This document shows, piece after piece, positions 20,715-63,375 of a DNA stretch of 64,000 nucleotides. A model generated the notes under the pieces. It was not told the DNA's origin and ran no database searches. It saw only the letters and a program-made list of their open reading frames with translations. Position 1 is the first letter of the stretch; every line of letters begins with the position of its first letter. The translations under genes and the position numbers were made by a program. The stretch covers positions 383,842,001 through 383,906,000 of the forward strand of contig OZ024741.1 of NCBI GenBank assembly GCA_964016885.1, read 5' to 3'. The stretch is from Eledone cirrhosa. Taxonomy: Eukaryota.

Positions 20715-21002
20715 TATAAGGAAAATAAATGAAATCGAAAATGCAACTGGAGTCTTTTTATATAAAAATATATATTTATTTGGTTCCTTTACCGGTTTCG
20801 CAGTTCTTCTGCTTTTCAAAAGTAGAGTTGAGATGGAGGGCTTGTGGTTTTTCTCAGATGTGAAATAAACCACAAACCCTCCATCTCAATTCTACTTTTG
20901 AAAAGCAGAAGAACTGCGAAACCGGTAAAGGAACCAAATAAATATATATTTTTATATAAAAAGACTCCAGTTGCATTTTCGATTTCATCTTTTTTCCTTA
21001 TA
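20715..21002. repeat. About 290-bp near-perfect palindrome carrying hammerhead motifs, next to (TA)n
   Basis: Arms about 20715-20855 and 20860-21002 are reverse complements. Confidence 0.9.
20895..20930 (+). ncRNA. Minimal type I hammerhead ribozyme-like motif, U3-A8 core variant (mirror copy on - at 20787-20822)
   Basis: CUU-UUGAAAA-GCAG(AAGAA)CUGC-GAAA-CCGG-UA-AAG. Confidence 0.6.
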
Positions 21003-21615: not shown

Positions 21616-24447
<2,832 letters not shown>

Positions 24448-24657: not shown

Positions 24658-25168
24658 ATTGTTATACTTTGGGAGGGTCATGTTGCCAATAAGAAACACA
24701 CGCACGAGTTGCTTTCACTTCAATTTATTATAATAAATTTATAAATTTAGCAATTTATAAATTTCTGGTTGGTTGGTTGGTTCCACAACCAGACAGTTGT
24801 TTATATATTGTCAAAGTTCTTTCGTCACACATTCTGTGACCTCTTCAATGACTGGGGATTCTTTTCTTTGTTTTTGTGCCTCTCCTTTGTTCTGTCCTAC
24901 GCCTGTCCCAACAAAATGGCGTAGGACAGAACAAAGGAGAGGCACAAAAACAAAGAAAAGAATCCCCAGTCACTGAAGAGGTCACAGAATGTGTGACGAA
25001 AGAACTTTGACAATATATAAACAACTATCTGGTTGTGGAACCAACGAACCAACCAACCAGAAATTTATAAATTGCTAAATTTATAAATTTATTATAATAA
25101 ATTGAAGTGAAAGCAACTGGTGCGTGTGTTTCTTATTGGCAACATGACCCCTCCCAAAGTATAACAAT
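24658..25168. mobile_element. About 510-bp palindromic element carrying hammerhead motifs (family B)
   Basis: Arms of about 245 bp are reverse complementary; a homologous palindrome lies at 31997-32524. Confidence 0.85.
24969..25011 (+). ncRNA. Minimal type I hammerhead ribozyme (mirror on - at 24810-24852 with C3U)
   Basis: GUCA-CUGAAGA-G-GUCACA(GAAUG)UGUGAC-GAAA-GAAC-UU-UGAC. Confidence 0.75.
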
Positions 25169-31996: not shown

Positions 31997-32518
31997 GATA
32001 TTGTTATACTTTGGGAGGGTCATGTTGCCAATAAGAAACACACGCACCAGTTGCTTTCACTTCAATTTAATTTATTAAATATTTATAAATTTACAAATTT
32101 ATAAATTTCTGGTTGGTTGGTTGGTTCCACAACCAGATAGTTGTTTATATATATATAGTCATAGTTCTTTCGTCACACACTCTGTGACCTCTTCAGTGAC
32201 TGGGGATTTCTTTCTTCGTTTCTGTGCCTTTCCTTTCTTCTATCCTACGCCATTTTGTTTGTCAAACAAAATGGCGTAGGATAGAAGAAAGGAAAGGCAC
32301 AGAAACGAAGAAAGAAATCCCCAGTCACTGAAGAGGTCACAGAGTGTGTGACGAAAGAACTATGACTATATATATATAAACAACTATCTGGTTGTGGAAC
32401 CAACCAACCAACCAGAAATTTATAAATTTGTAAATTTATAAATATTTAATAAATTAAATTGAAGTGAAAGCAACTGGTGCGTGTGTTTCTTATTGGCAAC
32501 ATGACCCTCCCAAAGTAT

Positions 32519-32524
<6 letters not shown>
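31997..32524. mobile_element. About 530-bp essentially perfect palindromic element (family B), between (TA)n tracts
   Basis: Centre attttgttt-gtc-aaacaaaat at about 32262. The extension 31940-31996 matches 24599-24657. Confidence 0.9.
32323..32367 (+). ncRNA. Minimal type I hammerhead ribozyme (mirror on - at 32157-32201)
   Basis: AGUCA-CUGAAGA-G-GUCACA(GAGUG)UGUGAC-GAAA-GAAC-UA-UGACU. Confidence 0.8.
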
Positions 32525-32553
<29 letters not shown>

Positions 32554-41857: not shown

Positions 41858-41904
41858 GGCTCTGATGATTCCCGCCATGGTGTATGGATGAAACACTGTT
41901 AGCT
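41858..41904 (+). ncRNA. Minimal type I hammerhead ribozyme
   Basis: GGCU-CUGAUGA-U-UCC..GGA-U-GAAA-CACUG-UU-AGCU, followed by AATAAA and a terminus that is inverted at 41707-41742. Confidence 0.6.
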
Positions 41905-41989
41905 AATAAAACAATGTATTTCTAAGTACTCTTTGGTTATTCCTATAACTATATATAACAAACATCACGGACGCTCTATCTCAAAATTA

Positions 41990-42025
41990 TTTTTGAAAAG
42001 CATTAGAAATGCGCAACCGGTAAAA
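41990..42025 (+). ncRNA. Degenerate U3-A8 hammerhead motif (GAAA changed to GCAA)
   Basis: UUU-UUGAAAA-GCAUU(AGA)AAUGC-GCAA-CCGG-UA-AAA. Confidence 0.45.
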
Positions 42026-42172
42026 CTTAAAACCAAAACTGAATACTAACCAATACTATTACTAATTATCAGTTATTCCTAATTAAACTATTTTTCACTG
42101 TGAACAATTTGTCAGCATTTTCTATTCCGTTTACCAATATATCATAACTTGGGTGTTACACCTCTATTCTTT

Positions 42173-42237
<65 letters not shown>

Positions 42238-42279
42238 AATACAGTATATATATATATATGTACAGTATATATAAGGTAT

Positions 42280-42322
42280 ACGTTGCTGACGATAGCTAAC
42301 AAGCTTGAAACTAGTACAGCGT
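42280..42322 (+). ncRNA. Minimal type I hammerhead ribozyme with palindromic CUAG loop III
   Basis: ACGUUG-CUGACGA-U-AGCU(AACA)AGCU-U-GAAA-CUAG-UA-CAGCGU. Confidence 0.8.
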
Positions 42323-42650
42323 TCCTTTGTCAGTGTTGAACAAACGAGCAACGGTGGTTGCTAGACACTACGGCTTAATACGGGATGTTTGTTTACAAAC
42401 ACACCGAGCATTATAATAAATGTTCGGTGAATCCATACGTGCATATATATATGTGTGCATGTATGTATATATATATATACATTATACTGTACGTCGGTAT
42501 ACATATGTGTATGTACGTGTACATACTTATATTTAAGTAACAGCCGCACTAAGAGTGGGAAATGAAATATCGTTTCATTTTTTCCGTTTATATATACATA
42601 TATATATTCCTATATATATATATATACTTATATATATATATATATATATA

Positions 42651-42706
<56 letters not shown>

Positions 42707-43088
42707 CATACATTCCTATATATATATATATATATATATATATACTTATATATATATATATATATATATATACAGTATATATATATATATATATATATAT
42801 ACAGTATATATACATATATATATATATATAGGAAAATGTATGACCCGACGGCAGAGGTTATTCCGTTTCGACGGCTATTTCTGGATGTCCAGAAATAGCC
42901 GTAAAAACGGCTTGAGCTCTGCCGTCAGGGTCATATATTTTCCTATTACCCACTCTACTACCCTAAGTATTGAGTACTCTGGTGCTATGGTCCATCTGGT
43001 TCCTTACCACAACTCCTTCGTTATATATATATATATATATATATAAAGATAGCGTAGAAAATACAATGCAACGGGAGGAAACAATACC

Positions 43089-43130
43089 ACCACTGACGAT
43101 GTTGCAGATGTGCAACGAAAGAACTTTGAT
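43089..43130 (+). ncRNA. Minimal type I hammerhead ribozyme (divergent family B)
   Basis: ACCA-CUGACGA-U-GUUGCA(GAUG)UGCAAC-GAAA-GAAC-UU-UGAU. The element ends in gaccctcccaaagtataacaa(ta)n at about 43335. Confidence 0.75.
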
Positions 43131-63083: not shown

Positions 63084-63146
63084 ATATATATATATAAGTA
63101 TGTATGTATACGTACATACATATATGTATACAGACGTACAGTAGCA

Positions 63147-63218
<72 letters not shown>

Positions 63219-63331
63219 CATAATACATACAGGTACACATACATATATGCACGCATCACTTTAGCGGACGCTTATTATAAGTAAGTACCATACTAAGAGT
63301 GAGAAATGAATTTCGTTTTCATTTTTTTCAA

Positions 63332-63375
<44 letters not shown>

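What the first reader, a model, noticed from the sequence alone, without database searches (positions are those of the whole stretch)
42280..42445. Most canonical minimal hammerhead with self-complementary CUAG loop
Seen: 6-bp stem I, CUGACGA, AGCU/AGCU stem II and GAAA-CUAG-UA, then a hairpin (caccga.catt...aatgttcggtg) whose loop region contains AATAAA, then (TA)n. Known: a palindromic loop III allows stem III to form between two molecules. This is the best single candidate for a biochemical test.
Basis: partly seen in the sequence, partly recalled or inferred. Interest (0 to 1): 0.7.

Follow-up and report, generated by a model that had tools for sequence, protein, structure and literature searches.

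The report
Hammerhead retrozyme copy with Penelope ends
This predicted self-cutting RNA motif is really there, inside a truncated copy of a non-coding repeat whose motif occurs tens of thousands of times in this animal genome and was likely spread by Penelope-type jumping genes; it is an ordinary member of a known kind (retrozymes), and this lone copy is likely inactive.

Summary
The hammerhead is real: stem I, core CUGACGA, stem II, GAAA-CUAG-UA, predicted cut after A42316. It is not unique. The motif matches 28,493 times in the genome, 1,561 times letter for letter. It lies in a 319-bp partial copy (42273-42591) of a 422-bp tandem unit. Helices I and II covary across three related units. Copies have variable 5' ends and two fixed 3' ends about 56 nt apart, followed by (TA)n. 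Of 32 head-to-head junctions, 21 pair one long with one short end and none pairs like with like. Coding Penelope-like elements (PLEs) of this genome show the same footprint. Verdict: a metazoan non-LTR retrozyme, likely moved by PLE enzymes. It needs a distal helix starting at 42273, and it has U.U instead of G-C at the base of stem II. AATAAA is probably not a poly(A) signal. This copy lacks the unit's U6-like octamer+TATA element and has no partner ribozyme in the window. Cleavage, expression and the coding partner were not shown. The scan reported this family before on other DNA (e1-8665316).

The parts
42273..42591 (+). 5'-truncated copy (319 bp) of a 422-bp hammerhead repeat unit (non-LTR retrozyme); unit positions 379-422 then 1-275, counting from the predicted cut
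   Evidence: (310 of 314 identical to a tandem unit in L030); 3 differences in 256 compared positions from array L031
42273..42327 (+). complete type I hammerhead including the distal helix I and internal loop 1
   Evidence: the exact 55-mer occurs 1,561 times in G000
42280..42285 (+). helix I, 5' strand (pairs with 42317-42322)
   Evidence: 3 of 6 pairs change on both sides
42286..42292 (+). catalytic core C3-A9 (CUGACGA)
   Evidence: among 104 copies only N7 varies at subfamily level (71 C, 33 T)
42293..42306 (+). helix II: U.U at the base, 4 bp, loop AACA; includes a second palindrome CAAGCTTG (42300-42307)
42307..42316 (+). GAAA, palindrome ACUAGU (42310-42315, predicted intermolecular helix III) and GUA triplet; predicted cut after A42316
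   Evidence: cleavage inferred, not tested
42402..42429 (+). 11-bp hairpin with loop ATAATA, one arm of the unit's branched fold; AATAAA at 42415-42420 is partly paired and not conserved
42433..42531 (+). long internal TA-rich hairpin of the unit (approximate limits; not the flanking microsatellite)
   Evidence: fold of the 422-nt unit
42536..42591 (+). about 56-nt PLE-type 'tail' between the short end (unit 216-219) and the long end (unit 275); includes T6 at 42578-42583
42592..42830 (.). 3' flanking (TA)n target microsatellite
42176..42272 (.). 5' flanking (TA)n; it is the 3' flank of the upstream PLE fragment, into which this copy appears inserted
41955..42175 (+). neighbour, not part of the element: 3' fragment with tail of a coding RT + GIY-YIG PLE family
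   Evidence: (about 90% identical to L146/L152)

Best explanation
This is a truncated genomic copy of a non-coding, hammerhead-bearing tandem repeat (a metazoan non-LTR retrozyme) that was likely inserted into a TA microsatellite by the enzymes of a Penelope-like element. Shown from sequence: the family, the covarying hammerhead fold, two fixed 3' ends, variable 5' ends, head-to-head arms and (TA)n targets. Inferred steps: (1) tandem arrays are transcribed, probably from an internal octamer+TATA element that resembles this genome's U6 upstream sequence; (2) two ribozymes pair through ACUAGU and cut after GUA, releasing 422-nt monomers that a host ligase would circularise, as in coral, mussel and axolotl; (3) a Neptune/Nematis-type PLE protein nicks (TA)n and primes reverse transcription at one of two sites about 56 nt apart, runs through the cleavage junction and stops at a variable point; (4) this copy started at the long end and stopped 44 nt past the junction, so it keeps an intact ribozyme but lost the putative promoter and has no partner nearby, and is likely inert.
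For: Copy number: 28,493 motif matches against 4 for the control; tandem units of 422 and 484 bp and a homologous 468-bp family (254 of 409 aligned positions identical). Fold under selection: on 11 hand-picked distinct sequences, 6 of 15 pairs change on both sides, 0 of 500 shuffles reach this, and slid controls give 0-2. In 104 copies, subfamily-level changes fall at N7, loop 2 and helix I pair 3 (53 U.G, 40 G.U, 8 A-U). Circular folds of the three units have z -7 to -9 against 40 shuffles each. Ends: of 119 arms in 71 loci, 51 end long, 43 short and 25 elsewhere; 85 of the 94 long/short ends run into TA-rich sequence. Of 32 head-to-head junctions, 21 are long+short, 0 are like+like and 11 have an unclassified arm (two of the 21 look like a segmental duplicate in L062). 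Coding RT + GIY-YIG elements of the same genome have the same two ends, about 39, 50 and 66 nt apart, and their tail runs into the ORF start. PMC8557442 names tail-at-one-end, 5' inversion and (TA)n bias as PLE traits (passages). No coding capacity: longest ATG frame 51-66 aa. Promoter-like element: TATGC..ATT.GG lies exactly 43 nt before TATATA in 75 of 75 copies where the regex found both, ATGCAAAT in 66 of them. Three distinct U6 upstream regions carry TATGC(A/T)AAT(T/G)AG at -77 to -79 and TATA at -30; the 484-bp unit matches one 12 of 12 (1 of 500 shuffles). Rare substitutions on the RNA-sense strand: A>G 34 against T>C 16 (p 0.016, one of six tests, about 0.1 corrected).
Against: No coding partner found. 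The units matched 3 of 50 GIY-YIG loci, all as separate insertions, and 8 PLE proteins hit 4 of 71 repeat loci without being contiguous with a unit. Only the best 150 of 10,596 GIY-YIG candidates were scored. U.U replaces the usual G10.1-C11.1 pair, and a second palindrome (CAAGCUUG) makes a mispaired dimer 2.5 kcal/mol more stable than the active one in the two-strand fold (1.9 in a natural tandem). 5' ends do not pile up at the cut site (4 of 40 distinct junctions at -2..+1, tallied by eye from the first 100 of 1,383 matches), so the genome gives no direct sign of cleavage. Some variants recur in non-adjacent units or in both arms of one array (L031, L067), which a single monomer circle does not explain. 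The promoter match is weak in the exact subfamily of this copy (10 of 12; 87 of 500 shuffles), is 9 of 12 by eye in the 468-bp unit, has 43-nt spacing against 47-49 in U6, and is absent upstream of U1. A T5-T7 run in every unit would stop Pol III before the next unit. In Xenopus only 1 of 9 predicted retrozyme dimers cleaved in vitro (10.64898/2026.07.22.740005). All repeat loci studied come from the first 22 Mb of one contig.
Confidence: 0.8

Rival explanations
1. Non-autonomous PLE copied from linear, uncleaved multimeric transcripts. The hammerhead is inherited from a pLTR, cuts rarely, and no RNA circle is involved.
For: Copies run through the cut site with no pile-up of 5' ends. Units within an array are heterogeneous in L031 and L067. 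[quoted passage not shown]
Against: Covariation shows the fold was kept while the units diverged to about 60% identity. Related animal repeats accumulate as circles (PMC7229834). This rival differs from the best reading only in the template, and the genomic data here cannot exclude it.
Confidence: 0.3
2. The copy is the 3' end (pLTR) of a coding PLE whose body was lost by 5' truncation.
For: Coding PLEs of this genome leave many such 3' fragments with the same two ends, one directly upstream.
Against: Upstream of the ribozyme, copies continue into the previous unit, an inverted arm or unrelated flank; none of 71 loci continues into a PLE frame. Arrays of up to 8 units occur.
Confidence: 0.1
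3. A satellite spread by DNA recombination or rolling-circle DNA, with a hammerhead relic.
For: Tandem arrays with near-identical units (0-4 differences among full units of one array).
Against: Fixed 3' ends, long+short pairing in 21 of 21 classifiable inversions and (TA)n targeting are not expected from unequal crossing-over.
Confidence: 0.05
4. A host 3'-end module in which the ribozyme and AATAAA process a gene's transcript at this locus.
For: Hammerhead followed by AATAAA on the same strand.
Against: AATAAA is partly paired and lost in 10 of 98 copies. The copy is young, lies among other mobile fragments and has no second ribozyme of its family in 64 kb. Host genes were not annotated here.
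Confidence: 0.03

Closest known systems
Metazoan non-LTR retrozymes (coral, mussel, axolotl; Cervera and de la Pena 2020, PMC7229834, parts 2-4 of 6 read; review PMC7761336, passages)
   Same: Tandem units of a few hundred bp, GC under 50% (0.36-0.38), one type I hammerhead per unit, strongly self-paired fold. The 1-bp helix III with palindromic tetraloop is as in axolotl HHR_Amex1 and the U.U at the base of helix II as in HHR_Amex2.
   Different: No sequence identity tested or known. Here the ends are fixed and PLE-like, a feature those passages do not describe. The review says retrozymes seem to lack promoters, whereas this unit carries a U6-like element. Expression and circles are not shown here.
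Penelope-like elements, Neptune/Nematis type (Craig et al. 2021, PMC8557442, passages; Cervera and de la Pena 2014, PMC4209133, parts 1-2 of 4)
   Same: Hammerhead near the 3' end, 5' truncation, partial tandems, inverted 5' copy, tail at one end only, (TA)n target.
   Different: No RT or endonuclease. Tail about 56 nt rather than 30-40 (39-66 in this genome's coding families). The ribozyme is canonical rather than the min-HHR type. The clade is assigned only from the CX2-5CxxC linker and C-terminal GIY-YIG; no tree was built.
Vertebrate retrozymes as PLE derivatives (Li, Clavereau, Pollet 2026, 10.64898/2026.07.22.740005, parts 1-3 of 5 read)
   Same: Proposes exactly this dependence on PLEs, from co-occurrence and pLTR similarity.
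   Different: Vertebrate-centred (35 genomes, four invertebrates). It uses homology, not insertion ends. Here there is an insertion footprint but no pLTR homology found.
Newt satellite 2 and schistosome hammerhead satellite (seen only as a passage in PMC2220036; the primary papers were not held)
   Same: Hammerhead repeats with internal promoters: snRNA type, Pol II, in newt; Pol III in schistosome.
   Different: Polymerase unknown here; the element resembles this genome's U6 upstream region, not its U1 upstream region.

Membership tests
Type I hammerhead ribozyme | Core C3 U4 G5 A6 N7 G8 A9, G12 A13 A14, A15.1-U16.1, H17 | tested here: met
   (H17 = A)
Type I hammerhead ribozyme | Helices I and II supported by covariation | tested here: met
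   3 of 6 and 3 of 5 pairs change on both sides; the helix II changes all come from one sequence (the 468-bp family)
Type I hammerhead ribozyme | G10.1-C11.1 pair at the base of helix II (typical) | tested here: not met
   U.U in 102 of 104 copies at each side; same departure reported for the active axolotl HHR_Amex2; G-C in the 468-bp family
Type I hammerhead ribozyme | Helix III, here formed between two copies through a palindrome | tested here: met
   ACUAGU palindrome, kept in all three units; double hammerhead -25.6 kcal/mol; computed only
Type I hammerhead ribozyme | Match to an Rfam hammerhead model | tested here: inconclusive
   no match; models expect an intramolecular helix III (my knowledge)
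Type I hammerhead ribozyme | Site-specific self-cleavage | not testable with these tools
   needs in vitro transcription
PLE minimal hammerhead (min-HHR, PMC4209133) | Helix II 7-8 bp, helix I 4-5 bp with ill-defined loop 1, extra nucleotide before G10.1-C11.1 | tested here: not met
   helix II 4 bp, helix I 6+3 bp with internal loop; fits the paper's 'canonical' type
Non-LTR retrozyme | Tandem units of about 150-450 bp, each with a type I hammerhead | tested here: met
   422-bp units, up to 8 in a row; the 484-bp subfamily is slightly above the range; this copy itself is under one unit
Non-LTR retrozyme | Non-coding, GC below 50%, self-paired fold | tested here: met
Non-LTR retrozyme | Expressed as linear and circular unit-length RNA | not testable with these tools
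   no RNA holder listed; contigs only
PLE-mobilised non-autonomous element | Tail at one end only, 5' inversion, 5' truncation, (TA)n target | tested here: met
   same in coding families
PLE-mobilised non-autonomous element | Sequence shared with the pLTR of a coding PLE | tested here: inconclusive
   none in 50 GIY-YIG loci or 71 repeat loci; small sample of 10,596 candidates
Autonomous PLE | RT + GIY-YIG open frame | tested here: not met
Poly(A) signal | Conserved, unpaired AAUAAA 10-30 nt before an A tail | tested here: not met
U6-type (type 3 Pol III) promoter in the full unit | Upstream element and TATA box at U6 spacing | tested here: inconclusive
   motif match 10-12 of 12 but spacing 43 against 47-49; region missing from this copy

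The most novel reading that the evidence does not exclude
The family is a self-transcribing retrozyme: it carries a promoter borrowed from this animal's U6-type genes, cuts itself only as a dimer, and is copied as an RNA circle by a Neptune-type Penelope enzyme that primes on both sides of a TA break at two sites 56 nt apart. Its thousands of young insertions would then be a genomic record of the PLE tail-forming step and a ready substrate for reconstituting PLE retrotransposition in vitro.
Probability: 0.3. Interest if true: 0.6.

Novelty: new member of a known kind. Interest (0 to 1): 0.33.

Why it matters
The single copy matters little: it is one of tens of thousands and probably inert. The family matters modestly. 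PMC7229834 only proposes PLEs as the carriers of animal retrozymes, and PMC8557442 calls the origin of tails and inversions an open mechanistic question. Here a short non-coding element and coding PLEs of the same genome show the same long+short end rule, which supports that link from insertion ends. It also offers a small natural RNA for testing dimer cleavage and PLE priming. Searches for a description in print found no paper on retrozymes of this kind with such ends, but only the open-licence library was searched, and the supplements of the cited papers were not read and may list this family.

Tried and rejected
DNA search of the own genome with 42275-42445 returned nothing because common words are skipped; patterns were used instead. 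One search was void (regex slip) and was repeated. Expression: no RNA holder listed; the two runs guessed to be RNA laid only short TA-rich pieces; X3 and X4 hold the family as thousands of contigs of unknown kind, X6 and X7 a few contigs, X8 none laid; none of this bears on expression. Rfam miRNA and snoRNA matches are TA-repeat artefacts below gathering score. The hairpin survey failed (1 hit, bad regex) and was redone. A splice reading of AAG|GTAAGT ... CAG|G in the unit was dropped: about 30 nt long and the donor is changed in the 484-bp subfamily. The idea that this copy equals a whole Pol III transcript (start near TATA+30, end at T6) was dropped: 5' ends are spread over the unit without a clear cluster there. 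A target-site duplication cannot be read inside (TA)n. Search for the coding partner was negative (one search gave the 468-bp sister family instead). Rows dropped: 39 of loci L001-L109 were left out as overlapping duplicates; 6 of 110 anchors were left out of the column counts as truncated or shifted. Loci were chosen by exact patterns, which favours intact, young copies. Primary papers on newt satellite 2, the schistosome repeat and Lunse et al. 2017 were not held.

Full report
Observation. A strict descriptor finds this one site in the window and none in 500 shuffles. Rfam gives no hammerhead match.

It is one copy of a large family. The pattern CTGANGA-N14-22-GAAACTAGTA matches 28,493 times in the 3.0-Gb genome against 4 for the control, and the exact 55-nt ribozyme 1,561 times. 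The matches are single copies, tandem arrays and head-to-head pairs. The units are 422 and 484 bp (342 of 422 aligned positions identical). A homologous 468-bp family has a related ribozyme (the pattern that found it gave 5,702 matches, 95 of the first 100 of this family). The window copy spans 42273-42591 and differs at 3 of 256 compared positions from a young array. The units are non-coding and about 37% GC.

The fold is under selection. Among 104 copies the common variants lie at N7, in loop 2 and at helix I pair 3, which alternates U.G, G.U and A-U. On 11 hand-picked distinct sequences including one of the 468-bp family, 6 of 15 pairs change on both sides; 0 of 500 shuffles reach this, and slid controls give 0-2. 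The tool warns that related sequences inflate this test, and the helix II changes come from that single sequence. The architecture is the 'canonical' metazoan type I of PMC4209133, not its minimal type. The 1-bp helix III and the U.U pair each have a precedent in axolotl ribozymes that cleave better as dimers (PMC7229834). Computed energies agree with dimer dependence: active monomer -4.4 against -11.5 kcal/mol for the inactive fold; strand-swapped double hammerhead -25.6 against -23.0 for two monomers. A mispaired dimer using a second palindrome (CAAGCUUG) is slightly lower still, -28.1.

The ends point to Penelope-like enzymes. In 71 non-overlapping loci (70 from the first 22 Mb of contig C1 plus the window; 39 overlapping loci dropped) there are 119 arms: 51 end at unit position about 275 (328 in the longer unit), 43 at about 216-219 (270), 25 elsewhere. 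Of the 94 fixed ends, 85 run into TA-rich sequence. 5' ends are spread across the unit. Of 32 head-to-head junctions, 21 join a long-ended and a short-ended arm, none joins like with like, and 11 have an unclassified arm. PMC8557442 lists a tail at one end only, an inverted 5' copy and (TA)n bias as PLE traits. This genome holds many RT + GIY-YIG elements with a CX2-5CxxC linker, so Neptune/Nematis type (no tree built). Their 3' ends follow the same rule, with tails of about 39, 50 and 66 nt that continue into the ORF start in tandem copies. The window copy sits in the (TA)n right after a 3' fragment of one such family (41955-42175). I did not find the coding partner: no unit continued into a PLE frame in 50 GIY-YIG loci or 71 repeat loci.

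Promoter. Three distinct U6 upstream sequences have TATGC(A/T)AAT(T/G)AG at -77 to -79 and TATA at -30; three others lack the element, and U1 genes use something else. The unit has the same kind of element 43 nt before TATATA in all 75 copies where the regex found both. The match is 12 of 12 in the 484-bp unit (1 of 500 shuffles) but 10 of 12 in the 422-bp reference (87 of 500). The spacing is 4-6 nt shorter than in U6, and a T5-T7 run in each unit argues against simple Pol III read-through. This is a candidate only. Internal promoters are reported for newt and schistosome hammerhead repeats (passage in PMC2220036), while PMC7761336 says retrozymes seem to lack them. The region (unit 311-360) is missing from the window copy.

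RNA intermediate. No RNA run is listed. Rare substitutions show A>G 34 against T>C 16 on the sense strand (p 0.016 before, about 0.1 after correcting for six tests), a weak hint of editing that I tested after reading e1-8803865. 5' junctions do not pile up at the cut site (4 of 40), so templates were circles or uncut multimers rather than cut linear monomers. Variants shared by non-adjacent units in L031 and L067 are not explained by one monomer circle; multimeric templates or later conversion would explain them.

The AATAAA hairpin is one arm of the unit's branched fold and is kept, with a different sequence, in the 468-bp family, where the hexamer reads AGTAAA. 88 of 98 located hairpins have AATAAA; most of the rest read AATAAG with the stem kept (14 of 112 anchors had no hairpin located). 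Copies have no A tail. It is unlikely to be a poly(A) signal.

Verdict. A real, intact hammerhead sequence in a truncated and probably inert copy of a non-LTR retrozyme family with a clear PLE insertion footprint. No second ribozyme of the family lies in the window. It is a new member of a known kind. The link to PLEs is already proposed in print (PMC7229834; 10.64898/2026.07.22.740005), and the scan has described this same 422-nt family at another locus (e1-8665316). I reached the two-end reading, before that look-up. For a bench test, a natural two-unit array including the distal helix is a better substrate than this copy.

Noticed in passing
window 63100-63336: A small two-armed insertion of the 484-bp subfamily without the ribozyme: a minus-strand piece joined to a plus-strand piece that is only the tail, ending in (TA)n.
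   Followed up: partly
window 31998-32526: Perfect 264-bp inverted repeat with two divergent hammerhead-like motifs (GAAA-GAAC-UA, not palindromic) of another family; related copies at 24814-25007 (inverted pair, one with a long end) and 43093-43126.
   Followed up: partly
window 20715-21002: Head-to-head pair of 3' ends of a coding PLE family (as in L141), one long and one short.
   Followed up: partly
window 41990-42023 and L141, L146, L152, L158: Coding PLE families here carry hammerhead variants with a U3-A8-type core (UUGAAAA or UUGAUAA) and a CCGG palindrome; one reads GCAA in place of GAAA. PMC4209133 mentions the U3-A8 covariation.
   Followed up: no
window 41862-41900: Another hammerhead-like motif (GAAA-CACTG-TT) related to copies in L146 and L147; a third repeat family in the same pile of insertions.
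   Followed up: no
L160-L189 (G000:C1): 468-bp sister family with G-C at the base of a 5-bp helix II, GUU triplet, arrays of more than ten units and two 3' ends about 70 nt apart.
   Followed up: partly
L190-L193 and L205-L215: U6 genes of this genome have an octamer-like element at about -78 and TATA at -30; U1 genes have a different upstream motif (AATCAGT-like) and also a TATA-like box.
   Followed up: partly
window 21911-24224 and 684-1634: Remains of non-LTR retrotransposon frames: 22803-24221 matches RVT_1 (E 1e-30); the other two frames gave no Pfam match.
   Followed up: no
window 42300-42307: A second palindrome, CAAGCTTG, overlaps helix II and competes with the active dimer in the computed fold; it is absent from the 468-bp family.
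   Followed up: partly
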